From an uncultured Candidatus Saccharibacteria bacterium (GTDB lineage: Bacteria > Patescibacteriota > Minisyncoccia > Portnoybacterales > UBA2143): 48,911 bases of DNA. This document shows positions 17,601 through 41,085 of the stretch, piece by piece. Position numbers and translations under genes: made by a program. How positions within the stretch are numbered: position 1 is the stretch's first letter; each line of letters begins with the position of its first letter. The notes below the pieces were generated by a model, which saw nothing but the letters and a program-made list of their open reading frames with translations, ran no database searches and was not told the origin of the DNA. The stretch spans positions 5,778 through 54,688 of the forward strand of contig CAYQQO010000001.1 in NCBI GenBank assembly GCA_964420115.1, given 5' to 3'.

Positions 17601-18260
17601 ATGTATATGAAAAAATTTTTTGATTACACCAAACAAATATTTAGGGGGAAAAGCATTTATCGGATATTATTTAACTGGCAGGTGGAAAAACACTGCCGTG
17701 ATCTTGACGGCCTTTGCCTTGATTTGGCTGCTGGCGGGGAACCAAGTTATTACAATTATTTGTCTTTTTCAAAAGAAGCTAAATTAATTAAAGCTGATAA
17801 CAGCGAATTAAAAATATCCGATATGCGTTTGGACTTTAACCAGCCGCTGGCTTTAAAGGATAATTCTTTTGACAATGTTCTTTTTTTTAACGCAGTTTAT
17901 ATTGTCAGAAAGCCCGAAGCTCTTTTTAGAGAAATGCACCGCGTTTTAAAAGAAAACGGCCGCCTTTTTGTTTCTTCTCCTTATATTCTTAATGAAGCAA
18001 AGGAGCCGGATGATTTCAGGCGTTTAACTTCTCAAGGATTAGAGGAGGTTTTGAAAAACAGCGGCTTCCAAAAATTTGAAATAATCCCCTTTGGCAACAG
18101 GTTTACTGCCGCCGCTTTTCTGCTTAATTGTTTTTTTCTTTTTAATGTTGTTCGTTTTTTTGCTTGCGGTTTGGCTATTCTTTTGGATTATTTAGTCCCT
18201 AAAAACATTAAGAGGCGGCATCCTTGCCCTTTGGGGTACTTTATCATTGCTAAAAAATGA
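17601..18260 (+). CDS. Class I SAM-dependent methyltransferase with a hydrophobic C-terminus, 219 aa
   Basis: Motif I LCLDLAAGGE. Post-II segment VLFFNAVYIVRKPEALFREMHRVLKENGRLFVSSP. C-terminal TM-like segment AAAFLLNCFFLFNVVRFFACGLAILL. Confidence 0.7.
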   Translation: MYMKKFFDYTKQIFRGKSIYRILFNWQVEKHCRDLDGLCLDLAAGGEPSYYNYLSFSKEAKLIKADNSELKISDMRLDFNQPLALKDNSFDNVLFFNAVYIVRKPEALFREMHRVLKENGRLFVSSPYILNEAKEPDDFRRLTSQGLEEVLKNSGFQKFEIIPFGNRFTAAAFLLNCFFLFNVVRFFACGLAILLDYLVPKNIKRRHPCPLGYFIIAKK

Positions 18261-19402
18261 AAATATACTATATAAACAATACTCGTTTGCCGACAGAGAG
18301 GGCTCATGGCTTGCAAATTATGAAAACGTGCCAGGCGCTGGCTGACAAAGGCGTTTTTTTGGAATTAATTATTCCCCGGCGCTTTAATAAAATTAAAGAA
18401 AACCCCTTTGATTATTACGGAATTAAAAGTAGTTTCAAAATAAAAAAAATATTTTCTTTAGATATAACTTTCTTGGGCAAGTTATTGGGTAAAACTGCTT
18501 TTTTAAGTCAATCTGCTTCTTTTGCCAAAATTGCTTTTCTTTTTGTTTTTTTAAAAGTAAAAAAAAGCGATATTATTTATTCGCGCCACTTTTTTACATT
18601 GCTTTTTGTCAGTTTTTTGGATAGAAAATTTATTTATGAAATGCACACTTTCCCAAAAAAATACTTTTGGCACAAAAGAGTTTTTAAAAAATCATTCGGC
18701 ATAGTGGCAATTACTAACGGGCTTAAAAATAAATTAGTTGAGAAGGGGATTCCAGAGAATAAAATATTGGTTTTGCCCGATGGTGTAGATTTAAATCATT
18801 TTAATATTAATTTATCAAAAGCAGACTGCCGTCAGAAAGTCAATCTTCCAATTGATAAAAAAGTAATTTTGTACAGCGGGCATTTGTATAACTGGAAAGG
18901 CGGACAAACACTGGCTAAGGCGGCAGGATTTTTTGGCAATGACTATCTTTTTGTTTTTGTCGGCGGGACAAAAGAAGATATTAAAAGGTTTAAAAAAAGA
19001 ATATCAGCTTTTAAAAATATTATGCTCGTTGGCCATCAGCTGCACAAAAGTATCCCCTATTGGTTAAAGGCGGCTGATCTTCTTGTTTTGCCTAATTCCG
19101 GCAAAATGAATATTTCTAAATACTGGACATCGCCAATGAAGATGTTTGAATATATGGTCAGCAAAAGGCCGATTACAGCTTCTGATTTGCCTTCAATTAG
19201 AGAGGTCCTTAACGAAAACAACGCTTTTTTGGTTAAGCCAGACAACGAGAAATCATTGGCCGAAGGGATTAAATATTGTTTAAACAATTTGGATTTTTCC
19301 GAAAAAATATCAGAACAGGCCTTTAAAGACGTACAAAAATACAGTTGGGATAAAAGAGCAGAAAAATTTTTAAGTTTTATTAAAAAGGAAACAAAAAAAT
19401 GA
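18257..19402 (+). CDS. GT4-like glycosyltransferase, 381 aa
   Basis: GHLYNWKGGQTL and SPMKMFEYMVSKRPITASDLPSIREVL, a variant of the E-x7-E region. Confidence 0.7.
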   Translation: MKIYYINNTRLPTERAHGLQIMKTCQALADKGVFLELIIPRRFNKIKENPFDYYGIKSSFKIKKIFSLDITFLGKLLGKTAFLSQSASFAKIAFLFVFLKVKKSDIIYSRHFFTLLFVSFLDRKFIYEMHTFPKKYFWHKRVFKKSFGIVAITNGLKNKLVEKGIPENKILVLPDGVDLNHFNINLSKADCRQKVNLPIDKKVILYSGHLYNWKGGQTLAKAAGFFGNDYLFVFVGGTKEDIKRFKKRISAFKNIMLVGHQLHKSIPYWLKAADLLVLPNSGKMNISKYWTSPMKMFEYMVSKRPITASDLPSIREVLNENNAFLVKPDNEKSLAEGIKYCLNNLDFSEKISEQAFKDVQKYSWDKRAEKFLSFIKKETKK

Positions 19403-20490
19403 GAAAAAGCTTAGTTATTAATCAGGAGCAAATCGCTGATGTTAAAAACATTCTCAACCGGGCATATTACCCTTTAGACGGCTTTTTAAGAAAAAAGGAC
19501 TTTATAAGCGTTGTTTCTAATATGCGCTTGTCAGGCGGGCAGGTTTGGCCTATTCCTATTGTTTTAGATGCAGGGAGAGGTCAGGCGATTGATTCTAAAA
19601 AAGAAAAAGAATTAAATTTAATTGGTCCTGATAAAAAGCCCGTTGCCTTGTTAAAAGAAATAGAAATATACAAGTATAATAAAAGATTTTTAGCAGAGAA
19701 TGTCTTTGGCACATTAGATGAGAATCATCCCGGGGTGGAAAATATTTTTAAAATGAACAACTACTTAATTGGCGGCCGCATTGAAAAAGCAAAAGATTTA
19801 ATGGGAAAGAATAAGAGGGTTTCTCTTTTTGACAAATATAATTTGACTCCTTCCCAGACAAGGGATATCTTTAAAAGAAGGGGGTGGCGGAAAATAGTTG
19901 CTTTTCAGACAAGAAATATTCCTCATCGCTCACACGAAGCGCTTCAGAAATTAGCCTTAAGGCAAGTTGATGGTCTGTTTGTTCAGCCAGTTATCGGCTG
20001 GAAAAAAACAGGCGATTTTTTAGATGATGTTATAATCAAGAGTTACGAAATTTTGGTTGACAGATATTATCCGAAGGGAAAAGTTCAATTAGGTATTTTG
20101 CCCCTTAAAATGAGATACGCCGGACCAAGAGAAGCGATTTTTCACGCTTTAATAAGAAAAAACTATGGTTGCACCCATATGATTGTTGGAAGAGATCATG
20201 CCGGCATAGGTAATTATTATTCTTCATTTGCCGCCCAGGAAATTTTTAGTAATTTTCTGCCGGAGGAAATCGGTATTGATATAGTTAAGTTTGATAATTT
20301 TGTTTATTGCCAGATGTGTAAAAAATTTATTTCTCAAAGCAAATGTTCTCATTTAGATAAGGATAAATTATTTTTAAGCGGGACAAAAATAAGAGAATTG
20401 ATTAAAGAAGGACAGCCACTGCCTAAAAGATTAATTAGGAAGGAAATTAGCGATTTACTGCTTAATTACCCTAGCCCATTTGTTGATTAA
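19399..20490 (+). CDS. sat: Sulfate adenylyltransferase (ATP sulfurylase), 363 aa
   Basis: FQTRNIPHRSHEALQ (QxRNPxHxxH-type) and IVGRDHAGIG motifs. N-terminal PUA-like region. Confidence 0.9.
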   Translation: MRKSLVINQEQIADVKNILNRAYYPLDGFLRKKDFISVVSNMRLSGGQVWPIPIVLDAGRGQAIDSKKEKELNLIGPDKKPVALLKEIEIYKYNKRFLAENVFGTLDENHPGVENIFKMNNYLIGGRIEKAKDLMGKNKRVSLFDKYNLTPSQTRDIFKRRGWRKIVAFQTRNIPHRSHEALQKLALRQVDGLFVQPVIGWKKTGDFLDDVIIKSYEILVDRYYPKGKVQLGILPLKMRYAGPREAIFHALIRKNYGCTHMIVGRDHAGIGNYYSSFAAQEIFSNFLPEEIGIDIVKFDNFVYCQMCKKFISQSKCSHLDKDKLFLSGTKIRELIKEGQPLPKRLIRKEISDLLLNYPSPFVD

Positions 20491-20543
20491 CTTATAAAAT
20501 TGCGTCAGTGGCTTTATTTTATAAAAAGATTGCGAGGTAATAT

Positions 20544-21083
20544 ATGTGTAAAAATAAAGGATTTGTTTTGTGGTTTACCGGTCTTTCTATGGCCGGCAAA
20601 ACTACGGTAGCTAATAAGGTTTACAAAAAATTAAAAGAAAGGGGGTTGCGTGTAGAGAAGCTGGACGGCGATGTTGTCCGCCGCGGCCTGACAAGAGATT
20701 TAGGTTTTTCTCCAAAAGACAGGGATATGAATATAGAGAGAGTCGCTTTTGTGGCTAAAATACTAAGCAGAAATAATATTGGCGTTGTTTCCTCTTTTAT
20801 TTCTCCCTACAGAAAGCACAGACAGATGGTAAAAAGAAGTTCTCTTAATTTTATTGAGGTTTATGTTAACGCTCCTTTGGAAGTTTGTGAAAAAAGAGAT
20901 AAAAGAGGATTGTATAAAAAAGCTCGTTTGGGTCAAGTTAAATATTTTACTGGGATTTCCGATCCCTATCAGCCTCCTCTTGGGCCAGATATAGAACTTT
21001 TAACCGACAAAGAGACAGTTAATCAGAGCGCTGATAAGGTAATTAGTTATCTCTGCGCTAAAAAATTAGCGCCAAAAATTTAG
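20544..21083 (+). CDS. cysC: Adenylyl-sulfate (APS) kinase, 179 aa
   Basis: P-loop WFTGLSMAGKTTVA, then LDGDVVRRGL and SFISPYRKHR. GAGG Shine-Dalgarno 7 nt upstream of the start. Confidence 0.9.
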   Translation: MCKNKGFVLWFTGLSMAGKTTVANKVYKKLKERGLRVEKLDGDVVRRGLTRDLGFSPKDRDMNIERVAFVAKILSRNNIGVVSSFISPYRKHRQMVKRSSLNFIEVYVNAPLEVCEKRDKRGLYKKARLGQVKYFTGISDPYQPPLGPDIELLTDKETVNQSADKVISYLCAKKLAPKI

Positions 21084-21917
21084 ATTGAGACCAATTAATT
21101 TTTCCAGTTTCTTAATATCTTGCTGGTAAACTTTTAACAGCCTTTTTCTTGTTGACGGGTCAATTTGCGGATATTTGCCAATGGGGCTTGATATGATTTT
21201 ATCTATTAGTTCTATTATTTTTTTAAAACCTATTTTTTTGAAAAAATTAGCGACAATAACCCCGAATTTATATGAATTTATTTTTTTTATCGCTTTCCCC
21301 ATAGTTTTTTTAGCTAAAGCCGCGCGATAGTTTTTTGATGGGTTTTTAGTTTTCAACAAAGATGGAGGAATAAATTGGTCATTAACATTTAAAAACTGAT
21401 AGACCTTTTTGATAAAAGCTTTTGGGTCCCTGTTGATTTCTTCGTAAATTAAGATTAATATATTTTGGCGGGGGAATAATTTGAAATAGTTTGAGAGATA
21501 AGAATAATAAAACCCTCTTTTAGTTATTTCTGGATGTTTTTCAAGATATTCCTCAAAGGATTTGTTTTTGAATTCAAAGCTGGCGACTGACAGATAATTG
21601 GAAAAAGCTCTTTCTATCGGGTTTCTTAAACAAATAATCAGCTTTGTATCTGGGAAATGTTTTTTTATTTGTTTGGCGGTCGGAAAGGAGCTGTAATAGC
21701 CGGCATCGTATTCGCCCACTATTTGTTCTTTTTGGCAAAGGAAATGTTTGCTGTACCAATTGAGTCCGTAGTTATATGAGGGAGTGCCGAAAAAATGGAC
21801 TTCCTTTGGGGAAGACAAGCAAATTTGAGGGTGCTCTTTCAGGCAGTTGGCGATCCATGTGGTCCCTGCCCTTTGCACTCCGATGCCTATAAAATCAATT
21901 TTAAAACTATTTTTCAT
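21066..21917 (-). CDS. PAPS-dependent sulfotransferase, 283 aa
   Basis: 5'-PSB loop FIGIGVQRAGTTWI and 3'-PB motif LRNPIERAFSNY. Its 3' end overlaps the cysC 3' end by 18 nt. Confidence 0.8.
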   Translation of the reverse strand: MKNSFKIDFIGIGVQRAGTTWIANCLKEHPQICLSSPKEVHFFGTPSYNYGLNWYSKHFLCQKEQIVGEYDAGYYSSFPTAKQIKKHFPDTKLIICLRNPIERAFSNYLSVASFEFKNKSFEEYLEKHPEITKRGFYYSYLSNYFKLFPRQNILILIYEEINRDPKAFIKKVYQFLNVNDQFIPPSLLKTKNPSKNYRAALAKKTMGKAIKKINSYKFGVIVANFFKKIGFKKIIELIDKIISSPIGKYPQIDPSTRKRLLKVYQQDIKKLEKLIGLNLNFWR

Positions 21918-22107: not shown

Positions 22108-23490
22108 ATGAAAATTTTATTCATTTTACCTAAAATTAATTCACCGACCAAATGGATAGTTGGCTTGGCGTACATGTCAGCAATTTTGAAAAAAGCCGGT
22201 TATCAAGTTGAATTATTGGAAGTTAACAAAAAAGAAGAGATTAAAAAAGTTGTCCCTTTAGTAAAATTGTGCCAACCAGCAATAATTGGCTTATCGGCAA
22301 ATTCTCATCAATACACATATGCTAAAGAAATAGCCAAGCAGATTAAATTAAACTTTAATATCCCTGTATTTTTAGGGGGCGTTCATGCTGCCTTAACGCC
22401 TGATCAGATTATTAAAGATGAAATTTTTGATGGAGTTTGTGTTGGAGAGGGCGAGAAGCCCTTTTTGGATTTAGTAAAAAGAATTGAAGAAGGCGAGGAT
22501 TACAGTGATGTATCTAATTTTTGGTTTTATTCGTCTGGTGGTTTTGTTAAAAACGATGTTGGCCCTCTAGTTTCTGATTTAGACGATTTGCCTTTACCTG
22601 ATATTTCTATTTTTAAATTTTACAACCAAGCTGGTCAAAGTGAAATCGTTCCCAGGTTTATTTTTTCTCGCGGCTGTCCCTTTAATTGCACTTATTGCTG
22701 TAATCACGTTTTCAAAAAAATTTATGCCGGTCATGGCAGATACCTAAGATTTAGAAGCGTTGACAAGGCCTTGGATGAAATTAGTTCGGTCAGAGAAAAA
22801 TATAATTTTAGTCATTTTAAAATTGATGATGACACCTTTTCTTTAAATAAAGATTGGTTGATTGAGTTTTGTAATAAATATAAAAAAAAGTTTGATATGA
22901 GCTTTGAGTGTAATATTAGGCCCGGTTCAGTAGATGAAGAAATATTACTCGCCTTAAAAGAAGCGGGTTGTAGTTTAATAAAAATTGGCCTGGAAACAGG
23001 CAATGAAGCCTTGAGAAAAGAAATACTTGGGCGTTCTATTACTAACCAAAATATTGTTGGGCTCTTCCAGTCAGCTAAAAAAGTTGGCTTAGATACTTTT
23101 TCTTTTAATATGATTGGAGTGCCCGGCGAGACAAAAGAAACTATAAAAGAAACCATTAATTTAAACGCCCAAGTTAAGCCAACTTTTATGCAGGTAACTG
23201 CCTTTTATCCTTATCTCGGGACTTTACTTGGCCAAAAATGCATTGACGAAGGGCTTATTGGTTCTTATCGGGTTGATTCATATATGGAAGAATCAATTCT
23301 AAGCTTGCCGAATTTGAGCGCTAAAGATATAAAAAGGGCGGTTAAAAATTTCCAGTTTAATGTCTATAAGAGCTATAGTATAGGGCGGGCCCTATTGGAA
23401 AAAAAGAGACATTTGAAAGGTTTTATTACCTCAAAGCCCTTTTTGGTAAAAATAATTAAGCCGGTTTATAAATTGATAAAATTTTCATGA
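22108..23490 (+). CDS. Cobalamin-binding (class B) radical SAM enzyme, 460 aa
   Basis: N-terminal B12-binding-type Rossmann region (IIGLSANSH...PVFLGGVHA). Cluster motif SRGCPFNCTYC (CX3CX2C). Confidence 0.8.
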   Translation: MKILFILPKINSPTKWIVGLAYMSAILKKAGYQVELLEVNKKEEIKKVVPLVKLCQPAIIGLSANSHQYTYAKEIAKQIKLNFNIPVFLGGVHAALTPDQIIKDEIFDGVCVGEGEKPFLDLVKRIEEGEDYSDVSNFWFYSSGGFVKNDVGPLVSDLDDLPLPDISIFKFYNQAGQSEIVPRFIFSRGCPFNCTYCCNHVFKKIYAGHGRYLRFRSVDKALDEISSVREKYNFSHFKIDDDTFSLNKDWLIEFCNKYKKKFDMSFECNIRPGSVDEEILLALKEAGCSLIKIGLETGNEALRKEILGRSITNQNIVGLFQSAKKVGLDTFSFNMIGVPGETKETIKETINLNAQVKPTFMQVTAFYPYLGTLLGQKCIDEGLIGSYRVDSYMEESILSLPNLSAKDIKRAVKNFQFNVYKSYSIGRALLEKKRHLKGFITSKPFLVKIIKPVYKLIKFS

Positions 23491-24914
23491 AAGTGGTTTT
23501 AGCGACAGCTCCCCGCGCTTTGGGAGAAATAGAAATGGCTGGTCTGCCCTTTTTGGGGGTGGGTTATTTAGCGTCTTATTTAGAAGAGGCCGGTCATAAA
23601 GCAGTAATTGTTGATTCCCACAGCGATAATTTAAGCGTGGAAAAAGCGGCAAAAAAAATTATTTCTTTTAATCCTGAAGTGGTTGGTGTGACAGCCACTA
23701 CTCACAACCGTCTGCAAGCTATCGCTTTAATAAAAACTTTAAAAAAAGAACAGCCTAATTTGTTAATTGTTGTTGGCGGCCCTCATTTTTCTTTAAGCGA
23801 CAAAGATGCGCTGAGTTCTGTTCCGGAAATTGATTGTGTTGTCAGGTATGAGGGGGAAATAACATTAAAAAAATTGTTGGATGTCTGGCCTGATGAAAAT
23901 AAATTAAAAAATGTTTTAGGGATTACTTACCGTAATAAAAAAGGTTCTGTTGTTTTTACTCCTGACAGGCCTTTTATAGAAAACTGGTCTAATTTGCCTT
24001 TTCCTGCTTGGCATCTTTACGATTTGGATAAATACCAAAAAAAAATTTATCAGACCGATTTCAGAACAATCGGCGTAATCTCGGCCCGCGGATGTCCTAA
24101 TGTTTGCACTTATTGCGCCAATGCCGCTTTTTGTAAATCAAAACTTCGCTTGCGCGATCCTAAAAATTTTGTTGATCAGTTGGAATTTCTAAAGAAAGAA
24201 TACGGCTTTGAAGGTTTTAATTTTTGGGACGATACTTTGACTGTTGTTAAAAGCCATGTTAAAGAGATTTGCCGTCAGATACTTAAAAGAAATCTAAATA
24301 TTAAATGGTATGCCCGGGCTCGGGTTAATACGGTTGATAAAGAAATTATTGAGTTAATGAGAAAGGCCGGCTGTATTAGGATAAGTTACGGCATAGAATC
24401 AGGCAGTCCGAGAATATTAAAGGTGATAAAGAAAAACATTACATTAGAGCAAGCCAGAGAAGCAATCGGTTTTTCTTCTCGGGCGGGCATGATTGTCAGT
24501 TTGAATTTTATTGTTAATTTGCCGACAGAAACAATGGATGATTTAAAAATGACAGCTGAATTAATAAAAGAGTTTAATCAAATGGAGCGGGTTAAGGCCA
24601 GTTATGGGTTTTTGCTTATTTATCCCGGAACAGAAGTGGAAAGATTTGCCAAGGAAAACGGCATTTTACCCAAAAATTTTTCTTGGAACAGCTCTCATCA
24701 AACAGAGAAATACAAGCTTATTAGCGAAGATCCCAGCGTTCCTTATATGGAATGGGAAGGCAAGAAAATAGAAACAGTTAAGGCCTTTATGGTTAAAAAT
24801 TTAAACACTAAAAGCGGCCTGATTAAAAAGGGGTATAAGAAATTAAAGCGGGTTAAATCATTAAAAGAGTTAAAAACCTTATCAAAGGCGGGAATTAAAT
24901 ATTTAAAAGGATAA
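23487..24914 (+). CDS. Cobalamin-binding (class B) radical SAM enzyme, 475 aa
   Basis: VVGVTATTHN...IVVGGPHFS, then ARGCPNVCTYC. ATGA overlap with the upstream gene. Confidence 0.8.
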   Translation: MKVVLATAPRALGEIEMAGLPFLGVGYLASYLEEAGHKAVIVDSHSDNLSVEKAAKKIISFNPEVVGVTATTHNRLQAIALIKTLKKEQPNLLIVVGGPHFSLSDKDALSSVPEIDCVVRYEGEITLKKLLDVWPDENKLKNVLGITYRNKKGSVVFTPDRPFIENWSNLPFPAWHLYDLDKYQKKIYQTDFRTIGVISARGCPNVCTYCANAAFCKSKLRLRDPKNFVDQLEFLKKEYGFEGFNFWDDTLTVVKSHVKEICRQILKRNLNIKWYARARVNTVDKEIIELMRKAGCIRISYGIESGSPRILKVIKKNITLEQAREAIGFSSRAGMIVSLNFIVNLPTETMDDLKMTAELIKEFNQMERVKASYGFLLIYPGTEVERFAKENGILPKNFSWNSSHQTEKYKLISEDPSVPYMEWEGKKIETVKAFMVKNLNTKSGLIKKGYKKLKRVKSLKELKTLSKAGIKYLKG

Positions 24915-25789
24915 TGAGCAAAGAATTCAAAATTGATTTTATCGGCATCGGCGCGCCAAGATGCGCTACTGGCTGGGTTTTTAATATTTTAAAAGAGCAC
25001 AAAGAGGTTTGTTTTTCTTTTGTTAAAGAAACACAATTTTTTAATATGGATTATAATTACGAAAAAGGATTGGCTTATTATGAAAACTTTTTTAAAGGTT
25101 GTCCAGAAGGGCAAATAAAAGGGGAGTTTACCCCTGCTTATTATTTGCAGGAGAAAACAGCTCAACGCATTAAAAATAATTTTCCTCGGGTTAAATTATT
25201 AATAGTTTTAAGAAATCCGATGCAAAGAGCATATTCTCATTACCTTTTTAACAAAACAAGAGGCGTCCCGGTTAAATCTACCTTTGAAAAAGAGATAGAG
25301 AGAAATCCCCAATATATAAATGATGGATTTTACTATAGGCATTTATCTAAATTTTTAAAATATTTTAATTCTAATCAAGTATTGGTTGTTATTTATGAAG
25401 ATATAATTTTAAAGCCGGAAAAAACAGCTGAAAAAATCTATAAGTTTTTAAATATAGATTATAAATTTATTCCTTCCTCTCTTAATAAAATAATTAATTC
25501 TTACAACAGTAGTTATTTGAAAATCCCCCTAATTAACCAGATAATGCAAAAAATTTGGAGAAAAACACGAGGATATCAATTAGGGAGAAAAGCGCTTATT
25601 TTTTTTAAATTGTTGGGGCTTAATAAAGTTGCTAAGTTTGTTTTAGAGGTAAACCGGGCTGAAAAAAAATCAGGTTCTGCTAAAGAGCAGATTAGATCGG
25701 GGACTAATAAAAAGCTAAAAGAAATATTTGAAAGCGATATTAAAAAATTAGAAAATTTTATAGGGAGAGATTTAAGTTTTTGGCAATAA
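24914..25789 (+). CDS. PAPS-dependent sulfotransferase, paralogue of 21066-21917, 291 aa
   Basis: FIGIGAPRCATGWV (variant 5'-PSB loop) and LRNPMQRAYSHY (3'-PB). The N- and C-termini align with the minus-strand paralogue (KIDFIGIG..., DIKKLE.FIG..L.FW). Confidence 0.75.
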   Translation: MSKEFKIDFIGIGAPRCATGWVFNILKEHKEVCFSFVKETQFFNMDYNYEKGLAYYENFFKGCPEGQIKGEFTPAYYLQEKTAQRIKNNFPRVKLLIVLRNPMQRAYSHYLFNKTRGVPVKSTFEKEIERNPQYINDGFYYRHLSKFLKYFNSNQVLVVIYEDIILKPEKTAEKIYKFLNIDYKFIPSSLNKIINSYNSSYLKIPLINQIMQKIWRKTRGYQLGRKALIFFKLLGLNKVAKFVLEVNRAEKKSGSAKEQIRSGTNKKLKEIFESDIKKLENFIGRDLSFWQ

Positions 25790-27633: not shown

Positions 27634-28725
27634 ATGAAAGTAGTTCTTTTTGCTTTAACTGGTTTTGGCAACGGGGTTTTAGATGTTTTGTTGGAAAGCG
27701 GATGCCAAGTAGGAGCTGTTTTTACCAGAGTTGAGAAGGGTTCTTTCCCTTATTACAGAGAAAAAAACATTTTCCGCTATGCCAAAGAAAGGGGCGTTCC
27801 CGTCTACGCTGAAATAAACTGGACTGATATTTATAGAATTATCAACGGCATTTCGCCCGATCTTCTTTTGGTGGCGACATATTATCGGATAATCCCCCAA
27901 CAAATAATTACCATGACTCCCTTGGCTGTTAATCTGCATCCTTCCCTTTTGCCTAAATATAGGGGAGCTACCCCTTGTTTTTGGGCACTTTTTAACAAAG
28001 AGAAGGAAACAGGGGTAACAGCCCATTTTCTTACAGAAAAGCCTGATGCCGGAGATATGCTGATTCAAAGAAAGTTGGCAATAAGAGCAGATGAGGACGA
28101 GCGCTCTTTAAGAAAAAGATTATCTCAATTGAGCGCAGATGTCGCGCGGGAGCTAATATGGCAAATTAGAGAAGATCAGCTTAGTCCCGTACCTCAAGAA
28201 GAAGCCAAGGCAACTTATTGCTCAAAATTTAATAAAGAGTCGGTAAGAAAAAGAAAGGGGGTTGTGGTCGTTAATCTTAAAAAAAACCAGCAATGGCTGA
28301 CGGATTATGTTTTTCTTCGCAATAAGCACCTCCAAGCTCTGCTTAGCGAAAAAGTTGATTTGGCTGCAACAAAAGAGTGGCTAAGGCAAAATGATGTTGA
28401 GTTGTACGGAATAATTGATGGCGGAATTTTCCAAGGGGCTGTTGTTATATACATTAAGGAAAATAAAGGGGAGGGGGAGGTGGCTTTTTTTACTTCTAAT
28501 ATTGGTTGTGGCTATGGAGGCAGACTGTTGAAAATAACTGATGTTGTAGCAGTGGAGCGAAGGCTTTCGAAGCTTTGCGCCTGGACTAGGGATAATAATG
28601 TGCCAGCTATCAATGTTTTTCGACGAAACAGATATTTTTTGGTTAAGAAAACAGAAAAAACTTATCGAGGCGAAAAGATAAAAGGATATCTTTTTGAGAA
28701 ATACAAGAAAGGAGACAGAAAATGA
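27634..28725 (+). CDS. Bifunctional-looking formyltransferase (N-terminal) fused to a GNAT acyltransferase-like domain (C-terminal), 363 aa
   Basis: Formyltransferase core VNLHPSLLPKYRGATPCFWAL plus KPDAGDM, giving an Asn/His/Asp triad pattern. C-terminal about 130 aa carry the GNAT motif A-like NIGCGYGGRLL and NNVPAINVFRRNRYFLV. Strong AGGAGG Shine-Dalgarno upstream. Confidence 0.7.
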   Translation: MKVVLFALTGFGNGVLDVLLESGCQVGAVFTRVEKGSFPYYREKNIFRYAKERGVPVYAEINWTDIYRIINGISPDLLLVATYYRIIPQQIITMTPLAVNLHPSLLPKYRGATPCFWALFNKEKETGVTAHFLTEKPDAGDMLIQRKLAIRADEDERSLRKRLSQLSADVARELIWQIREDQLSPVPQEEAKATYCSKFNKESVRKRKGVVVVNLKKNQQWLTDYVFLRNKHLQALLSEKVDLAATKEWLRQNDVELYGIIDGGIFQGAVVIYIKENKGEGEVAFFTSNIGCGYGGRLLKITDVVAVERRLSKLCAWTRDNNVPAINVFRRNRYFLVKKTEKTYRGEKIKGYLFEKYKKGDRK

Positions 28726-29636
28726 GTAAAGCTGTTTCAAGTGATAAGGAAGCTGAAAGACTGGAAGATGCCGGATGTTTCCCCAGGGTGGTTCTTATTG
28801 ATACAATCAACTTTTGCAATCTGCGCTGTTCTATGTGCGGCCGTCAGGAAATGGCAAGGAAAGGCGGTATTATGAAAACACCGCTTTACCAGAAAATCAT
28901 TAACGAGATAACCGCCAAAGACAAAAGCGTCAGGGTTTGGCTTGTCTTTTTCGGCGATCCCTTTATGTTGAAAGGGAAATTCCGCGGCTACATGGGATAT
29001 GCTAAAGAGAAGGGGCTGACTGACGTGGTGGTTAACACCAATGGCAATCTGATGAATGAAGAGCGCTCTCGGGAAATGATTGATGCCGGCTTAGACGCTG
29101 TTTATATCGGTATTGACGCTGTAAGCGCGCCTGTTTACAGTAAACTGCGGATAGGCGGTAATTTACCTAAAGTTGTCGCTAACGTCAAGCGGTTGATTGA
29201 GTTAAAAAAAGAAACAGGAGCGGATAAGCCCGAGGTTTTTGTCCAGTTTGTTGAAATGAGGGAAAACAGCCATGAAAAACAGAAGTTCATTGACTTCTGG
29301 ACAGGCCAGGGGGCGATTGTCAAGGTCCGGCCAAAAGTAAGCTGGGCAGGGACAGTAGCGGCTGACAATCTGAAGGCGGGTGAAGAAAGACACCCCTGCT
29401 ACTGGGCCATGCGGACAATGAATATCCTTTTTGACGGCCGGGTTTGCCTCTGCGCTGTTGACTACGACGGCAGGTTTATTGCCGGCGACATCAGCAAGGA
29501 ATCGCTGGAAAATGTCTGGCTTAACGGGCTGGGGCAAATCCGCAAGATGCAAAGAGAGGGAGAGTATTCTTCTCTGCCGTCTATTTGCCGCTATTGTTTG
29601 GACTGGCAGGCGGCCAAGGCGCAATTCCGTCAATAA
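28722..29636 (+). CDS. Radical SAM enzyme with a truncated SPASM/twitch-type C-terminal domain, 304 aa
   Basis: NFCNLRCSMCG (CX3CX2C). C-terminal C-x12-G-x4-C (CYWAMRTMNILFDGRVCLC) followed only by CRYC. Confidence 0.8.
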   Translation: MSKAVSSDKEAERLEDAGCFPRVVLIDTINFCNLRCSMCGRQEMARKGGIMKTPLYQKIINEITAKDKSVRVWLVFFGDPFMLKGKFRGYMGYAKEKGLTDVVVNTNGNLMNEERSREMIDAGLDAVYIGIDAVSAPVYSKLRIGGNLPKVVANVKRLIELKKETGADKPEVFVQFVEMRENSHEKQKFIDFWTGQGAIVKVRPKVSWAGTVAADNLKAGEERHPCYWAMRTMNILFDGRVCLCAVDYDGRFIAGDISKESLENVWLNGLGQIRKMQREGEYSSLPSICRYCLDWQAAKAQFRQ

Positions 29637-29674
29637 GTTTTGCGGCGGGATGAGCCAAGTTTGGCGGGAAGAGA

Positions 29675-29709
29675 GGGCTTTCTTGTTGACAAGAAGAGAA
29701 AGCCCTTTT
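29675..29709 (+). terminator. Hairpin plus T-run between the two SPASM genes
   Basis: GGGCTTTCT (29675-29683) pairs with AGAAAGCCC (29697-29705) and is followed by TTTT. Confidence 0.5.
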
Positions 29710-29714
29710 ATATT
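29686..29714 (+). promoter_or_regulatory. Consensus-like sigma-70 promoter TTGACA-N17-TATATT, overlapping the hairpin
   Basis: TTGACA at 29686-29691 sits in the hairpin loop. TATATT is at 29709-29714. Confidence 0.45.
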
Positions 29715-29787
29715 TGTATAAAAATACAAGTTGTTCCTTGAATAAAAAAACTATGCCGATAAATTTCCAATGGAGAAGGAGAAAGCT

Positions 29788-30753
29788 ATGCGAATAAATC
29801 ATTTGCCAGAAGAGTTTAAGATTAAAGAAGGCGCTGAAGAATTCCCATTAATGGTTGTTCTTTCCTTCGTTTATATTTGCAACGCCAGGTGTCCACAATG
29901 TCCTTATACGCAAACCAATATCAGAGCTGACTATAAAGATGCTCTTTATATGCCGGAGGAGCTTTTTAAAAAAATCGCTGATGAATGCGGCCAGTATCAG
30001 GCATATATTCGTCTTTCTGGAGGAGGCGAGCCTCTTCTTCATCCTAAAGCGCTTGATTTGGTTGAGTACGCCAAGGAAAAAAGGGCTAAGATCGGGCTTA
30101 TCACCAACGGCTCCTTAATAGATGGAAAGAAAGCTGGTCGACTGCTGGCTTGCGGGACTGATATGATTGAATTTAGTGTTGATGCGGCTGATAAAGAGAC
30201 ATATAGCCAGTTGCGCAAGGGGCTTAGTTTCGGCAAATTGGTTGAAAATGTCAGATATATTGTTCAAAAAAGAGATCAGTTAAATAGCCCGAGCAGGATA
30301 ATCGCCAGCATTATCAATCAAAAAGCTGTTGAGGGAAAGCTTGATTCTGTTGTTAGTTTTTGGGGAGAAATTGTTGATGATGTTCAGGTTAGAAAGTATC
30401 TGACCTGGGGTTATCTTAACGATCACTCGGCCGATTCAAGGCCATATTTGCCGCCAGAGCAGAGAATTCCCTGTCCTTGGCTGTTTGAAAGATTAAATAT
30501 TGACAGCAGGGGGGATGTCACTCTTTGCGGAGAGGACATCGCCTTTAAAGAAAAGTTCGCTAATGTCTATAAGCAGCCAATCAAGGAAATATGGCGCGGC
30601 CCTGTTTTTGAGAAAGCGCGTCGTCTGCATCTGAGATGTCAAGGCGACCAAATCCCGCTTTGTCGGAATTGCCCTGACTGGCAGTATCGGTCTTGGACGC
30701 ACAACTATTGGAAGCTGGAGGCTGAGAGAAAGGCTGATATCAACAAAAAGTAA
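29788..30753 (+). CDS. Radical SAM enzyme with a truncated SPASM/twitch-type domain, paralogue of 28722-29636, 321 aa
   Basis: ICNARCPQCPY (CX3CX2C). CPWLFERLNIDSRGDVTLC (C-x12-G-x4-C), then CRNCPDW. I prefer the ATG at 29788 because AGGAG lies 6 nt upstream; the track start at 29770 is the alternative. Confidence 0.8.
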   Translation: MRINHLPEEFKIKEGAEEFPLMVVLSFVYICNARCPQCPYTQTNIRADYKDALYMPEELFKKIADECGQYQAYIRLSGGGEPLLHPKALDLVEYAKEKRAKIGLITNGSLIDGKKAGRLLACGTDMIEFSVDAADKETYSQLRKGLSFGKLVENVRYIVQKRDQLNSPSRIIASIINQKAVEGKLDSVVSFWGEIVDDVQVRKYLTWGYLNDHSADSRPYLPPEQRIPCPWLFERLNIDSRGDVTLCGEDIAFKEKFANVYKQPIKEIWRGPVFEKARRLHLRCQGDQIPLCRNCPDWQYRSWTHNYWKLEAERKADINKK

Positions 30754-36460: not shown

Positions 36461-36462
36461 TT

Positions 36463-37569
36463 ATGCGCGTTTCTTTTTTTGTTAATCAATTGTCATCAAA
36501 AGACGGCTGGGGGAGATATTCTGTTAACCTAATAAAACAGGCGATATCTTCTGGTGTTGATTGTCATGTTTTAGCATCGGTTGATGCTAAAAAGGGGGAG
36601 TTGTCTGATGTTAGAGTTGATAAAGTTTTACCTCCTTTGTTTGCTAAAAGATCGGTTAAGCTTTTTCAATTAGGCCAAAGTTATTCCCAGATTAAAAGCT
36701 TAATAAAAAAAGCTGATATCTTGCATTGCTTAACAGAGCCCTATGCTCCGGTGGTTCATTTAGTAAAAGGGCAAAAACCGATGCTTGTGACGCTTCACGG
36801 CACTTATGCCATCAGTCCTTTCGGCAAAAAAATATTAAGGAATGTTTACTCAAAAGTTTACAGCGGTGCCGATAAATTAATTTGCGTTAGTGATTATACC
36901 AAACGCCAAATATTAAAAAAAATTAATTCTAAAAATATTATAGTTATTAATAACGGAGTTGATTGCAGTAAGTTCCAAAGAGAAAATTCCTTTGACCAAA
37001 TTCCCAAAAAGAGTCATATTATAGGTGTGGGAGCGCTGACTCCGCGAAAGGGGTATCATGTTGCTCTTTCAGCTCTTGCTATTGTTAAAAAGAAATATCC
37101 GGCAGTTAAATATTTAATAGTGGGCAGTCAAAAAAACGGTTCTTATTACCAGAAACTAAGAGAAATTATCAAAAAACATAAACTGGAGAATAATGTGGGT
37201 TTTTTGGAGGGGATTTCTGATAAAGAATTAATTGATTTATATTATCGCTCTAAATTGTTTTTATTAACGCCAACAAATGTTGGTGATAGTTTTGAGGGAT
37301 TTGGCTTTGTTTATTTAGAGGCCAATGCTTGCGGCAAGGCAGTTGTCGGCAGTAATAACTGCGGGGCAGAAGGGGCGATTAAAAATAACTATAACGGCCT
37401 TTTGGTTCCCCAAGATAATATACAAAAAACTGCCGAAGCTGTTTTAAAAATTTTAGACAACCCCGGCTTGGCCGCCCAAATGGGCGAGAATGGGAAAGCT
37501 TGGGCTAAAAATCATGATTGGAAACAAGTTTTTTCAAAATATTTAGATGTTTACAAGGAATTAATATGA
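36463..37569 (+). CDS. GT4-family glycosyltransferase, 368 aa
   Basis: FEGFGFVYLEANACGKAVVGSNNCGAEGAI, and GALTPRKGYH. Confidence 0.8.
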   Translation: MRVSFFVNQLSSKDGWGRYSVNLIKQAISSGVDCHVLASVDAKKGELSDVRVDKVLPPLFAKRSVKLFQLGQSYSQIKSLIKKADILHCLTEPYAPVVHLVKGQKPMLVTLHGTYAISPFGKKILRNVYSKVYSGADKLICVSDYTKRQILKKINSKNIIVINNGVDCSKFQRENSFDQIPKKSHIIGVGALTPRKGYHVALSALAIVKKKYPAVKYLIVGSQKNGSYYQKLREIIKKHKLENNVGFLEGISDKELIDLYYRSKLFLLTPTNVGDSFEGFGFVYLEANACGKAVVGSNNCGAEGAIKNNYNGLLVPQDNIQKTAEAVLKILDNPGLAAQMGENGKAWAKNHDWKQVFSKYLDVYKELI

Positions 37570-38507: not shown

Positions 38508-38546
38508 TTTTGCTTTAGTTCTTTTGCAAAGGCAAGATTAAATTTT

Positions 38547-40400: not shown

Positions 40401-41085
40401 TAAAAATAATAATTTTGAGGCCTGGAATGAAGAAATGGCCAAAAAATATAATCCTGACAAATACCACAGGAGCGCTAATTTAATTGTTCGTTTTATTGAA
40501 AAAAAAAGAACGAAGTGGATTATAAAATTCTTAAATTTTAGAAAAGATGATTTAGTAATTGAGCTTGGTTGTGGAGCTGGCAATATTATGGAAGAAATTG
40601 GTTCTGTTAAAGAATTATGGGGGGTTGATCTATCTGATTATTTGTTAGAAATAGCTGGGGAAAAAAGTTATCAATCTTCGGTTAAATTTATAAAGGGAGA
40701 CATAGAAAATTTGCCAGAGAGCGTTGCAGAAAATAAGTTTGATAAAATTTATTGCAGCGAGGTTTTAGAACATGTTCAAAATCCTCCAAAAGCTCTTTTG
40801 GAAATTAAAAAAATTACTAAAAAAAACAGCATTATTGTTGTTTCTGTTCCCAATGAAGAATTGATTAATAAAATAAAAAGAGGACTGCAGAAAATAAAGA
40901 TATTTAATTTGTTGTTCCCCGGCTTATCAAAAAAGATGGATGATGAATGGCATTTGCACAGTTTTGATTTAAGAAAGCTTTCTCATTTAACTGAAGATAA
41001 ATTTATAACTGAAAAAGTTAAGGGAATCCCCTATAATTGGCTGCCAATAAGATATATCGTTAAATTAAGAGTCAAAAATGATTAA
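40393..41085 (+). CDS. Class I SAM-dependent methyltransferase, 230 aa
   Basis: VIELGCGAGN (motif I). IYCSEVLEHVQNP...SIIVVSVPN. Confidence 0.8.
   Translation: MSDKNNNFEAWNEEMAKKYNPDKYHRSANLIVRFIEKKRTKWIIKFLNFRKDDLVIELGCGAGNIMEEIGSVKELWGVDLSDYLLEIAGEKSYQSSVKFIKGDIENLPESVAENKFDKIYCSEVLEHVQNPPKALLEIKKITKKNSIIVVSVPNEELINKIKRGLQKIKIFNLLFPGLSKKMDDEWHLHSFDLRKLSHLTEDKFITEKVKGIPYNWLPIRYIVKLRVKND

What the first reader, a model, noticed from the sequence alone, without database searches (positions are those of the whole stretch)
22108..24914. Four cobalamin-binding radical SAM paralogues in one sugar cluster (tandem pair here; also 41938-43353 and 47336-48790)
- All four have an N-terminal B12-binding-type Rossmann region followed by a Cys-triad [4Fe-4S] motif.
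- Class B radical SAM enzymes typically methylate unactivated carbon or phosphorus centres; GenK and Fom3 are the classic examples. Some catalyse ring contraction or cyclisation.
- Four copies plus three conventional methyltransferases imply unusually heavy, or unusual, C-modification of a glycan or its lipid carrier.
- If the host is a CPR-type organism, de novo cobalamin synthesis is not expected, so these enzymes would imply cofactor scavenging. That point is inference.
Basis: partly seen in the sequence, partly recalled or inferred. Interest (0 to 1): 0.75.

Follow-up and report, generated by a model that had tools for sequence, protein, structure and literature searches.

The report
B12-radical-SAM enzymes in CPR glycan island
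A large cell-surface sugar-building gene island from an ultra-small (Patescibacteria/CPR) bacterium carries four distantly related vitamin-B12-type radical enzymes of unknown function; three belong to families that recur, each beside its own methyltransferase and glycosyltransferase, across this group, so these organisms, which are not expected to make B12, probably need it to decorate their envelope sugars.

Summary
ORFs 22108-23490 (R1), 23487-24914 (R2), 41938-43353 (R3) and 47336-48790 (R4) each pass the Pfam thresholds for B12-binding and Radical_SAM. All four keep the Cys triad and the published cobalamin-contact motifs. The R1 and R2 models match solved class B enzymes over their full length.

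They are not recent paralogues: they share only 22-27% identity. None reaches the cut-off of any curated family (HpnJ, BchE, ApyD, PhpK, AprD4 and others).

The host is a Patescibacteria (CPR) bacterium. R1, R2 and R3 belong to three orthologous families that recur in CPR glycan loci, in set modules: MT-R2-GT4, MT-R1-GT4, and ArnC-like GT2-AsnB-MT-R3-GT-C-flippase. The R3 module also occurs in DPANN archaea. R4 is a rare lineage.

The tandem R1-R2 pair between sulfotransferases is a rearrangement peculiar to this window.

Best reading: these are cobalamin-dependent tailoring enzymes acting on lipid-linked sugar intermediates. C-methylation is the most likely chemistry, but it is only inferred. 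These are new subfamilies of a known enzyme class. Interest is moderate.

The parts
22108..23490 (+). R1: class B (B12-binding) radical SAM protein, 460 aa. Motifs: CPFNCTYC, GLSAN, GGVH, GEGE.
   Evidence: Pfam. Alignment A1. AF2 model with pLDDT 93.9. Foldseek full-length hits to MgmA, AprD4, TsrM, OxsB, CysS and TokK. At least 60 CPR orthologue clusters at 50% identity or more.
23487..24914 (+). R2: class B radical SAM protein, 475 aa. Motifs: CPNVCTYC, GVTAT, GGPH, EGE. Its start overlaps the R1 stop by 4 bp (ATGA).
   Evidence: AF2 model with pLDDT 88.9. Foldseek. Profile alignment to OxsB, TokK, CysS and MgmA covers the Cbl motifs. At least 119 orthologue clusters at 52% identity or more.
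41938..43353 (+). R3: class B radical SAM protein, 471 aa, with a CX4CX2C motif (CPYGRCTFC). Other motifs: GLSTV, GGPH, GEGE.
   Evidence: The best NCBIfam match is HpnJ over the full length, at 189 bits against a cut-off of 578.
47336..48790 (+). R4: class B radical SAM protein, 484 aa. Motifs: CPHRCGFC, GFSAI, GGIH, GEGE. A rare lineage. Its start overlaps GT4_h by 8 bp.
   Evidence: Only 2 representatives above 50% identity among 54,339 superfamily representatives. A singleton in clustering.
17601..19402 (+). MT1 (17601-18260) and GT4_f (18257-19402). In the closest relatives these flank R2 as MT1-R2-GT4_f.
   Evidence: Pfam. Synteny in L007, L008 and L010, with R2-GT4_f adjacency also in L005, L006, L012, L013, L014 and L015.
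19399..21917 (.). Sulfation cassette: ATP sulfurylase (19399-20490, +), APS kinase (20544-21083, +) and sulfotransferase 1 (21066-21917, -). It lies between GT4_f and R1.
   Evidence: Pfam. No sulfotransferase or APS kinase in any locus fetched; one distant archaeal locus (L044) has an ATP sulfurylase homologue.
24914..25789 (+). Sulfotransferase 2. It overlaps the R2 stop (TAATG) and occupies the position where relatives have GT4_f.
34451..37569 (+). unk669 (a 12-TM protein) and GT4_g. In L169 the order is unk669-MT-R1-GT4_g, so this is the usual slot of R1.
37518..41938 (+). GT2_b (ArnC-like polyprenyl-phosphate glycosyltransferase with 2 C-terminal TM helices), AsnB3 amidotransferase, MT2 and MT3. 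This is the upstream half of the conserved R3 module.
   Evidence: Conserved with R3 in L003, L170, L172, L173 and L174.
43402..47343 (+). PMT/ArnT-like GT-C (43402-45099, at least 9 TM), flippase-like LPG_synthase_TM protein (45096-46058) and GT4_h (46120-47343). This is the downstream half of the R3 module and the partner of R4.
   Evidence: Orthologues score for PMT/PMT_2 in L001, L169 and L173.
28722..30753 (+). Two SPASM-domain radical SAM genes (28722-29636 and 29770-30753). These are the fifth and sixth radical SAM genes of the island and sit inside an amino-sugar cassette.
   Evidence: Conserved block in Planctomycetota locus L078.

Best explanation
The four genes encode four separate lineages of cobalamin-dependent (class B) radical SAM enzymes. 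They serve as tailoring enzymes of a Patescibacteria cell-surface glycan assembly line.

**How they are organised**
Each enzyme is wired to a particular glycosyltransfer step. The ancestral units are:
- MT1-R2-GT4_f.
- MT-R1-GT4_g.
- ArnC-like GT2 - AsnB - MT - R3 - GT-C - flippase-like protein.

**Proposed mechanism (inferred)**
1. The enzymes are soluble but carry basic amphipathic C-terminal tails, and they work at the cytoplasmic face of the membrane.
2. Their substrates are polyprenyl-phosphate-linked or polyprenyl-diphosphate-linked sugars.
3. The [4Fe-4S] cluster cleaves SAM to a 5'-deoxyadenosyl radical, which abstracts a hydrogen from an unactivated sugar carbon.
4. Most probably methylcobalamin, regenerated from a second SAM, then delivers a methyl group. 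This would give C-methyl branched sugars, as GenK, GenD1 and MoeK5 do.
5. The neighbouring class I methyltransferases would add O- or N-methyl groups, and the AsnB homologues would amidate uronic acids.
6. For R3, the modified monosaccharide would then be flipped and transferred outside the cell by the GT-C enzyme. This follows Arn/Gtr logic.

**What is particular to this window**
R1 and R2 have been moved out of their usual slots. They now form a translationally coupled pair inside a PAPS-synthesis and sulfotransferase cassette.

**Shown versus inferred**
Shown: the architecture, the motifs, the fold, the orthology, the synteny and the CPR host. Inferred: the substrate class and the chemistry.
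For: **Enzyme class**
- Both domains pass their thresholds in all four proteins.
- None has a DxHxxG motif. All four carry G-x-S/T-x-X, GG and GE. These are the Cbl-contact motifs defined for OxsB, TsrM and TokK in PMC9204698.
- The R2-family profile aligns these motifs residue by residue to OxsB, TokK, CysS and MgmA. AprD4, which does not use Cbl (from my own knowledge), aligns only from position 160 onward.
- The AF2 models have pLDDT 93.9 and 88.9 and give full-length Foldseek matches to class B structures at TM 0.64-0.73.

**Conservation and host**
- The R1, R2 and R3 families are large, and all named close homologues are Patescibacteria.

**Glycan coupling**
- Of 58 B12-rSAM genes in 27 CPR loci, 24 have a GT4 immediately downstream on the same strand and 11 have a methyltransferase immediately upstream. 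Start and stop codons often overlap.

**R3 module**
- GT2_b matches ArnC over its full length (207 bits) and has 2 TM helices. The LPG_TM protein passes the flippase-like model TIGR00374. The GT-C is polytopic.
- The module recurs in L003, L170, L172 and archaeal L173. L174 carries a reduced form (GT2-MT-R3, a 598-aa protein without Pfam hits, and two small EamA proteins resembling ArnE/F).

**Membrane association**
- The C-terminal 50 residues carry a family-conserved net charge of +8 to +11 on amphipathic helices.

**Precedents**
- Sugar-acting class B enzymes include GenK, GenD1, Fms7, MoeK5, HpnJ and OxsB (PMC9204698).
Against: - No biochemical data exist for any member of these families.
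- No sequence signature separates class B methylases from non-methylases.
- The best, sub-threshold, NCBIfam hits are to HpnJ, BchE and ApyD. HpnJ and BchE are described as non-methylases in the review, not C-methyltransferases.
- The adjacency statistics come from loci chosen by homology to R1, R2 and R3, and they were annotated only by similarity to the window's own proteins. They are therefore biased.
- The GT-C assignment in the window itself is below threshold (19.4 bits against 22.7).
- Cobalamin binding is inferred from motifs and fold only, and AprD4 shows that the fold can persist without the cofactor.
- No cobalamin uptake or salvage gene is present in the 49 kb.
Confidence: 0.55

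Rival explanations
1. These are cobalamin-dependent radical SAM enzymes that tailor the glycan by chemistry other than methylation. Candidates are sugar ring contraction or rearrangement (HpnJ/OxsB type), epimerisation, or oxidation and cyclisation (BchE type).
For: - R1 and R3 score best against HpnJ, which contracts a lipid-linked glucosamine ring. R4 scores best against BchE.
- R3 shares the CX4CX2C spacing of OxsB.
- R1 has Asn at the position of OxsB Asn186.
- Conventional methyltransferases sit next to the rSAM genes and could account for all the methylation.
Against: - All those scores are 3- to 4-fold below the family cut-offs.
- By my reading of the enzymes listed in the review, most characterised class B enzymes, and most of the sugar-acting ones, are methylases (PMC9204698).
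- Motif coincidences at single positions are weak evidence.
Confidence: 0.25
2. The enzymes modify a lipid and not a sugar. The target would be the polyprenyl carrier or a membrane lipid, as in hopanoid methylases, archaeal GDGT-modifying enzymes and the proposed ladderane enzymes.
For: - There are sub-threshold hits to the lipid-associated families TIGR04072, HpnR and HpnJ.
- The basic amphipathic C-termini suggest membrane association.
- Arrays of related genes occur in Bathyarchaeia, whose lipids include methylated backbones. The lipid chemistry is from my own knowledge.
Against: - The immediate, translationally coupled neighbours are glycosyltransferases, sugar amidotransferases and methyltransferases. 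They are not lipid-synthesis genes.
- CPR bacteria largely lack lipid biosynthesis (my own knowledge).
- Scores to the lipid families are 100-125 bits against cut-offs of 360-650.
Confidence: 0.1
3. The enzymes modify a protein or peptide. The target would be a surface or S-layer protein or a RiPP, as with ApyD, PoyB/C or the MCR methylases MgmA and Mmp10.
For: - The best NCBIfam hit of R2 is ApyD at 223 bits, and all four hit the RiPP C-methyltransferase model.
- MgmA is the top structural neighbour of R1.
- A 1225-aa secreted Ser/Thr-rich protein lies upstream in the window.
Against: - The scores are far below the cut-offs (223 against 750, and 78-124 against 282).
- No small precursor ORF can fit beside any of the four genes, because the flanking gaps are 0-190 bp.
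- The conserved neighbours are glycosyltransferases and not peptide-maturation genes.
Confidence: 0.06
4. The N-terminal domain is a relic and the enzymes do not use cobalamin, as in AprD4. They would perform ordinary radical SAM chemistry such as diol dehydration or deoxygenation of sugars.
For: AprD4, which acts on an aminoglycoside sugar, is the best or second-best sequence match in the PDB for all four. It is also among the top structural hits.
Against: - AprD4 aligns only over the radical SAM core. The N-terminal domains instead align with the true Cbl binders OxsB, TokK, CysS and TsrM.
- The GG, GE and G-x-S/T motifs are invariant or nearly so within the families.
- The AprD4 family model scores 59-79 bits against a cut-off of 500.
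Confidence: 0.04

Closest known systems
GenK / GenD1 (gentamicin) and MoeK5 (moenomycin): class B radical SAM sugar C-methyltransferases
   Same: - They share the two-domain B12-binding plus radical SAM architecture.
- They act as tailoring enzymes on already assembled glycosides inside clusters that also hold glycosyltransferases and class I methyltransferases.
- MoeK5 works on a lipid-linked uronic acid that is also amidated by AsnB-like enzymes. This parallels AsnB3-MT-R3. The MoeK5 role is cited in PMC9204698. The pathway details are from my own knowledge.
   Different: - No measurable family membership could be shown. The related curated models (PhpK and KedN5 families) score 56-154 bits against cut-offs of 600-700.
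- The window proteins are shorter (460-484 aa) than the TokK, CysS and TsrM chains (575-681 aa).
- The context here is a primary cell-envelope glycan of CPR bacteria and not an antibiotic pathway.
- The chemistry is untested.
HpnJ (hopanoid-linked glucosamine ring contraction), TIGR03471
   Same: - It is the best-scoring curated family for R1 and R3. The R3 alignment spans the full length (residues 10-458 against model positions 11-455 of 472).
- Its size is similar, at about 470 aa.
- Its substrate is a lipid-anchored sugar.
   Different: - Scores are 146 and 189 bits against a cut-off of 577.6.
- No hopanoid genes are present.
- The host is CPR and the neighbours are GT, MT and AsnB genes.
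Arn (ArnC/ArnD/ArnE-F/ArnT) and Gtr-type polyprenyl-phosphate monosaccharide branches
   Same: - The R3 module holds an ArnC-like GT2 with C-terminal TM helices, cytoplasmic tailoring genes, a flippase-like membrane protein and an ArnT/PMT-like GT-C, in one operon.
- In L174 the flippase-like role appears to be filled by a pair of small EamA proteins like ArnE/F.
   Different: - The tailoring set is AsnB, class I methyltransferase(s) and a B12-radical SAM enzyme, where Arn has a deformylase.
- GT2_b scores 207 bits against a cut-off of 529, so it is not ArnC itself.
- The acceptor is unknown, and CPR bacteria have no lipid A.
Solved class B structures: TsrM, TokK, OxsB, CysS, MgmA
   Same: - The overall fold matches, at TM 0.64-0.73 over about 430-520 aligned columns.
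- They predict base-off, His-off cobalamin binding through the G-x-S/T, GG and GE motifs.
   Different: - Sequence identity is 14-20%.
- The C-terminal substrate domains and the substrates differ.

Membership tests
Class B (cobalamin-dependent) radical SAM superfamily | Radical SAM core with a CX3CX2C (or CX4CX2C) [4Fe-4S] motif | tested here: met
   PF04055 scores 80-92 bits against a cut-off of 29.5 in all four. The motifs were read directly. They are conserved in 118/118, 119/119 and 115/115 family members.
Class B (cobalamin-dependent) radical SAM superfamily | N-terminal Rossmann-type B12-binding domain | tested here: met
   PF02310 scores 60-78 bits against a cut-off of 32.1 in all four. 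The AF2 models of R1 and R2 show a beta-alpha Rossmann N-domain. Foldseek matches TsrM, TokK, OxsB, CysS and MgmA over both domains. R3 and R4 were not modelled.
Class B (cobalamin-dependent) radical SAM superfamily | Base-off/His-off Cbl-contact motifs: no DxHxxG, G-x-S/T-x-X on beta3-alpha3, Gly-Gly on beta4, and GE at alpha5 (PMC9204698) | tested here: met
   - R1 has GLSAN, GGVH and GEGE.
- R2 has GVTAT, GGPH and EGE.
- R3 has GLSTV, GGPH and GEGE.
- R4 has GFSAI, GGIH and GEGE.
- No DxHxxG is present in any of them.
- The motifs align to the same motifs in OxsB, TokK, CysS and MgmA.
Class B (cobalamin-dependent) radical SAM superfamily | Cobalamin is actually bound and required for turnover | not testable with these tools
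   This needs purified protein. AprD4 shows that the fold alone is not proof.
HpnJ (TIGR03471) | Score at or above the curated equivalog cut-off of 577.6 bits | tested here: not met
   R1 scores 145.9, R2 180.7, R3 188.8 and R4 123.9 bits.
BchE anaerobic Mg-protoporphyrin cyclase (TIGR02026) | Score at or above 481.35 bits | tested here: not met
   R1 scores 116.6, R2 221.6, R3 166.6 and R4 185.8 bits. There are no tetrapyrrole genes in the window.
Hopanoid methylase HpnR (TIGR04367) | Score at or above 650 bits | tested here: not met
   Scores are 67-115 bits.
AprD4 radical SAM diol dehydratase (NF033070) | Score at or above 500 bits | tested here: not met
   Scores are 59-79 bits. AprD4 aligns only to the radical SAM core.
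RiPP class B enzymes (ApyD NF050148; RiPP C-methyltransferase TIGR03975) | Score above the cut-off (750 and 281.85 bits) and an adjacent precursor peptide gene | tested here: not met
   ApyD scores 119-223 bits and TIGR03975 scores 78-124 bits. The gaps flanking the four genes are 0-190 bp, so no precursor ORF fits.
Class B sugar or phosphonate C/P-methyltransferases (PhpK family TIGR04479, KedN5 family NF033712; GenK, Fom3 and MoeK5 by analogy) | Family-level score, and methyl transfer producing SAH plus 5'-deoxyadenosine | tested here: not met
   PhpK scores 90-154 bits against 600, and KedN5 scores 41-104 bits against 700. No GenK or MoeK5 model is in the library. Activity cannot be tested here. 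The claim 'works like' these enzymes remains open.
Arn/Gtr-type polyprenyl-phosphate sugar branch (context of R3) | Polyprenyl-phosphate GT2 with C-terminal TM helices | tested here: inconclusive
   GT2_b aligns to ArnC over its full length at 207 bits, below the cut-off of 529. It also matches PgfS at 161 bits. It has two predicted C-terminal TM helices. It is homologous but is not an equivalog.
Arn/Gtr-type polyprenyl-phosphate sugar branch (context of R3) | Flippase-like membrane protein and GT-C transferase in the same operon | tested here: inconclusive
   The LPG_TM protein passes TIGR00374 at 72.6 bits against 43.2. The window's GT-C scores 19.4 bits for PMT against a cut-off of 22.7. 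Its orthologues in L001, L169 and L173 carry unmarked PMT/PMT_2 hits.

The most novel reading that the evidence does not exclude
CPR bacteria and DPANN archaea share a conserved envelope-glycan pathway that has not been described. In it, cobalamin-dependent radical SAM enzymes make carbon-level modifications (C-methyl branches or ring rearrangements) on polyprenyl-phosphate-linked sugars, before a flippase and a GT-C enzyme place them on the cell surface. Building the cell envelope of these ultra-small symbionts would then depend on cobalamin obtained from hosts or neighbours. The many sporadic B12-rSAM lineages (25 clusters among 61 genes) would be a diversification toolkit for surface antigens.
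Probability: 0.3. Interest if true: 0.7.

Novelty: new member of a known kind. Interest (0 to 1): 0.5.

Why it matters
Class B radical SAM enzymes are a very large and mostly uncharacterised class. Their known sugar substrates all come from antibiotic, nucleoside or hopanoid pathways.

This window, with its relatives, shows that three such families are standard components of the cell-surface glycan machinery of CPR bacteria. One of them is also found in DPANN archaea.

If the inference holds:
- Carbon-branched or rearranged sugars would be an ordinary part of these organisms' envelopes.
- There would be a concrete and testable dependency on external cobalamin in organisms not expected to make it.
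- Defined enzyme-GT pairs would be available as entry points for assigning function to unknown class B families.

Tried and rejected
**Led nowhere**
- An exact look-up of R4 to extend the window downstream found nothing on record.
It returned almost only distant relatives at 40% identity or less, so it added little R1 context. R1 contexts were taken from direct look-ups instead.
- Literature searches for B12-radical SAM enzymes in CPR or Patescibacteria glycan clusters found nothing relevant.
- A search for MoeK5 and MoeF5 found no paper in the searchable library. MoeK5 is cited only through the review.
- A proper phylogeny against characterised class B enzymes was not possible, because their sequences are not retrievable here. 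Scores against curated NCBIfam models were used as a proxy.
- A cobalamin uptake or salvage survey of the source genome was not possible.

**Considered and rejected**
- Recent tandem duplication of R1 and R2. They are 22% identical and each has its own orthologue family.
- A functional R1-R2-sulfotransferase unit. The arrangement is unique to this window.
- A RiPP cluster, an AprD4-like cobalamin-independent enzyme, and membership of the lipid or tetrapyrrole families. See the rival explanations and the membership table.


Full report
**1. Observation**

- R1 is 22108-23490, 460 aa.
- R2 is 23487-24914, 475 aa.
- R3 is 41938-43353, 471 aa.
- R4 is 47336-48790, 484 aa.

Each passes the Pfam gathering thresholds for B12-binding (PF02310, 60-78 bits against 32.1) and Radical_SAM (PF04055, 80-92 bits against 29.5).

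The cluster-binding cysteines are CPFNCTYC in R1, CPNVCTYC in R2 and CPHRCGFC in R4. R3 reads CPYGRCTFC, a CX4CX2C spacing. That spacing is kept in 109 of 115 R3-family proteins, and it is also the spacing of OxsB (PMC9204698).

The three class I methyltransferases are real: 17601-18260, 40393-41085 and 41078-41938. The island also holds:
- about twelve glycosyltransferase genes (nine GT4/GT1-type, two GT2 and one GT-C-like);
- three AsnB-type amidotransferases;
- a polysaccharide deacetylase;
- ATP sulfurylase, APS kinase and two sulfotransferases;
- a formyltransferase, WbqC, 4,6-dehydratase and DegT amino-sugar set;
- a Wzy_C/TPR protein;
- two further SPASM-type radical SAM genes.

**2. 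Are they cobalamin enzymes?**

That test fails to refute.

AlphaFold models of R1 (pLDDT 93.9, pTM 0.90) and R2 (pLDDT 88.9, pTM 0.87) show a Rossmann N-domain followed by a partial barrel. Foldseek matches them over both domains to MgmA, TsrM, OxsB, CysS, TokK and AprD4, at TM 0.64-0.73.

Fold alone is not enough, because AprD4 has this fold but does not use cobalamin (from my own knowledge). I therefore checked the contact motifs defined from the OxsB, TsrM and TokK structures (PMC9204698):
- No DxHxxG motif. None of the four has one.
- G-x-S/T-x-X on beta3-alpha3. R1 has GLSAN, R2 GVTAT, R3 GLSTV and R4 GFSAI.
- Gly-Gly on beta4. This is GGxH in all four.
- GE at alpha5. This is (G)EGE in all four.

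A profile of the R2 family aligns these motifs residue by residue onto the same motifs in OxsB, TokK, CysS and MgmA. AprD4 aligns only from profile position 160, which is the radical SAM core. Single-sequence searches show the same split.

Cobalamin binding is therefore well supported by sequence and model. It remains unproven biochemically. R3 and R4 were not modelled.

**3. They are not a paralogue set**

The four proteins share only 22-27% identity. Each has its own relatives:
- R1 has at least 60 clusters at 50% identity or more.
- R2 has at least 119 clusters at 52% identity or more.
- R3 has about 80 clusters at 50% identity or more.
- R4 has only two representatives above 50% identity, out of 54,339 superfamily representatives.

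None reaches the curated cut-off of any NCBIfam family. The best partial scores are:

| Protein | Best family | Score (bits) | Cut-off (bits) |
|---|---|---|---|
| R1 | HpnJ | 146 | 578 |
| R3 | HpnJ | 189 | 578 |
| R2 | ApyD | 223 | 750 |
| R2 | BchE | 222 | 481 |
| R4 | BchE | 186 | 481 |

They do not belong to any characterised family either.

**4. Host**

All named close homologues are Patescibacteria: Portnoybacteria, Nealsonbacteria, Pacebacteria and 'Patescibacteria group'. The closest R2 orthologue, at 73% identity, is in Candidatus Portnoybacteria RIFCSPHIGHO2_02_FULL_39_12 (L007). The CPR guess is supported.

**5. What the neighbourhoods say**

I fetched about 30 CPR loci around orthologues and annotated them by similarity to the window's own proteins. 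Three recurrent units emerge.

(a) MT1-R2-GT4_f.
- It is found in L007, L008 and L010, which are collinear with window 12.7-19.4 kb.
- R2-GT4_f adjacency is also seen in L005, L006, L012, L013, L014 and L015.

(b) MT-R1-GT4_g.
- It is found in L001, L168 and L169.
- R1-GT4_g adjacency without the methyltransferase is seen in L002 and L003.
- L170 has MT-R1 without the GT4. L167 has an MT and a small GIY-YIG gene upstream of R1 and a GT2 downstream.
- In L169 the order is unk669-MT-R1-GT4_g.

(c) GT2_b-AsnB3-MT-R3-GT-C, usually with a flippase-like protein.
- It is found in the window and in L003, L170 and L172.

Across 58 B12-rSAM genes in 27 CPR loci, 24 have a GT4 immediately downstream on the same strand and 11 have a methyltransferase immediately upstream. 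In non-CPR loci only 21 of 212 have any adjacent glycosyltransferase. Start and stop codons often overlap. These counts are biased by how the loci were chosen, but the pattern is consistent.

CPR loci average 2.9 B12-rSAM genes per 20 kb. The 61 genes fall into 25 clusters at 40% identity or more. R1, R2 and R3 are the recurrent families and R4 is a singleton. Another family sits between GT4_c and GT4_d in L007 and L008, and directly upstream of GT4_d in L010, but it is absent from that slot in the window.

**6. The highlighted tandem pair is a local rearrangement**

In the window, MT1 is followed directly by GT4_f, and unk669 is followed directly by GT4_g. Both R2 and R1 have therefore left their usual slots.

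They now sit together with a 4-bp ATGA overlap. Upstream of them are ATP sulfurylase, APS kinase and a divergent sulfotransferase. Downstream, a second sulfotransferase overlaps the R2 stop.

No sulfotransferase or APS kinase appears in any of the loci fetched, and only one distant archaeal locus (L044) has an ATP sulfurylase homologue. The tandem arrangement therefore should not be read as a conserved functional pair.

**7. The R3 module looks like an Arn/Gtr-type lipid-carrier branch**

- GT2_b aligns over its full length to ArnC, the undecaprenyl-phosphate Ara4FN transferase (207 bits, below the cut-off). It also matches PgfS, and it has two C-terminal TM helices.
- The LPG_synthase_TM protein passes the 'flippase-like domain' model.
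- The 565-aa protein is polytopic. Its orthologues score for PMT/PMT_2, which is the GT-C type.

The same module occurs in a Woesearchaeota genome (L173), next to A-type ATPase genes. The order there is GT2 (47% identity), MT (33%), AsnB (41%), an unknown gene, R3 (48%), PMT, GT4, LPG_TM and another B12-rSAM. This nearly mirrors window 37.5-48.8 kb.

In L174, beside an archaeal-type ribosomal protein operon, the order is GT2, MT, R3 (53% identity), a 598-aa protein with no Pfam hit, and two small EamA proteins resembling ArnE/F.

By analogy with Arn, the tailoring enzymes (AsnB3, MT2, MT3 and R3) would act on the polyprenyl-phosphate-linked monosaccharide before it is flipped and transferred. 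This step is inferred.

One weak support is that the last 50 residues of the R1, R2 and R3 families carry a conserved net charge of +8 to +11 on amphipathic helices. This fits peripheral membrane binding.

**8. Mechanism**

Shown:
- The class B architecture, with cluster and cobalamin motifs.
- Tight operon coupling to specific glycosyltransferases and methyltransferases.
- Conservation across CPR, and across DPANN for R3.

Inferred:
- Radical hydrogen abstraction from an unactivated carbon of a lipid-linked sugar.
- This is most probably followed by methyl transfer from methylcobalamin, as in GenK, GenD1, Fms7 and MoeK5 (PMC9204698).

The main rival is non-methylating chemistry of the HpnJ/OxsB type, because HpnJ is the nearest curated family of R1 and R3. 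Lipid, peptide and cobalamin-independent readings are less likely, for the reasons given under the rival explanations.

**9. Cobalamin supply**

No cobalamin synthesis, uptake or salvage gene lies in the 49 kb, and the rest of the genome could not be examined. So the scavenging idea remains an inference.

It has a published precedent. A Parcubacterium genome encodes a B12-dependent mutase without B12 synthesis, and the authors concluded that the cofactor must be acquired from elsewhere (PMC5220378).

**10. Novelty and verdict**

The enzyme class is well known, so these are new and uncharacterised subfamilies of a known kind.

I could not find two things described in the searchable literature. 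One is the systematic, modular presence of these enzymes in CPR envelope-glycan clusters. The other is the sharing of the R3 module with DPANN archaea.

Interest is moderate. The finding is real and it generalises. It gives defined enzyme-GT pairs to test, but the chemistry and substrates are still inferred.

Noticed in passing
window 19399-21917 and 24914-25789: A complete sulfate-activation set (ATP sulfurylase and APS kinase) plus two sulfotransferases lies inside the glycan island, implying a sulfated glycan. No sulfotransferase or APS kinase was seen in any of the roughly 30 related CPR loci or in any other locus fetched. One distant archaeal locus (L044) has an ATP sulfurylase homologue.
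   Followed up: partly
window 25780-34410; L078 705-17314: The block AsnB2-formyltransferase-SPASM rSAM-SPASM rSAM-WbqC-4,6-dehydratase-DegT-GT2 is conserved as a unit in a Planctomycetota chromosome (OY763323.1) at 34-57% identity. There it has a B12-rSAM embedded in it. In the window the block has higher G+C (0.385-0.437 against about 0.35), which suggests horizontal acquisition. The role of the two SPASM enzymes in an amino-sugar pathway is unknown.
   Followed up: partly
window 176-5892: An ECF-like sigma factor and a DUF5667 membrane protein are followed by a 1225-aa secreted protein. That protein has a signal peptide, is Thr/Ser/Ala/Asp-rich, has 0.6% Cys, gives no Pfam hit even at E<=1, and has G+C of 0.44-0.46. 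It is a candidate S-layer or surface glycoprotein and a possible acceptor of the glycan. L005 also has a 1231-aa ORF just upstream of its cluster.
   Followed up: partly
window 41938-43353 (R3); P0241-P0360: The R3 family uses a CX4CX2C cluster motif (109 of 115 homologues) where most radical SAM enzymes use CX3CX2C. OxsB shares this spacing.
   Followed up: yes
L173 (Woesearchaeota GCA_030651135.1), L174: The R3 module (GT2, MT, AsnB, R3, PMT-like GT-C and flippase-like protein) is shared between CPR bacteria and DPANN archaea at 33-53% identity per protein. This suggests inter-domain transfer among ultra-small symbionts.
   Followed up: partly
L026, L027, L031, L036, L046, L049, L055: Arrays of four to six B12-radical SAM genes per 20 kb also occur in Bathyarchaeia, Nanoarchaeia and a Betaproteobacterium, in most of the Bathyarchaeia arrays (L026, L027, L046, L055) next to GT2 or GT4 genes. 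Their function is unknown.
   Followed up: no
window 12618-12682; L007 3283-4758, L008 4464-5903: Close relatives carry a further B12-rSAM family (33-35% identical to R4) between GT4_c and GT4_d. The window has only a 63-bp gap there. B12-rSAM genes therefore come and go between otherwise collinear clusters.
   Followed up: partly
window 13781-15730, 25780-27621, 38547-40400: Three AsnB-type glutamine amidotransferases lie in one island. AsnB2 and AsnB3, the two scanned against NCBIfam, pass the asparagine synthase model (cut-off 267) and also score 514-544 bits against the exopolysaccharide-associated XrtA/PEP-CTERM amidotransferase model (cut-off 817). They probably amidate uronic acids or make amidino sugars.
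   Followed up: no
window 6766-9066: A 766-aa protein has 12 predicted TM helices, a Wzy_C (O-antigen ligase/polymerase-type) domain and C-terminal TPR repeats. A similar protein lies in L167. It could be the polymerase or an O-oligosaccharyltransferase for the glycan.
   Followed up: no
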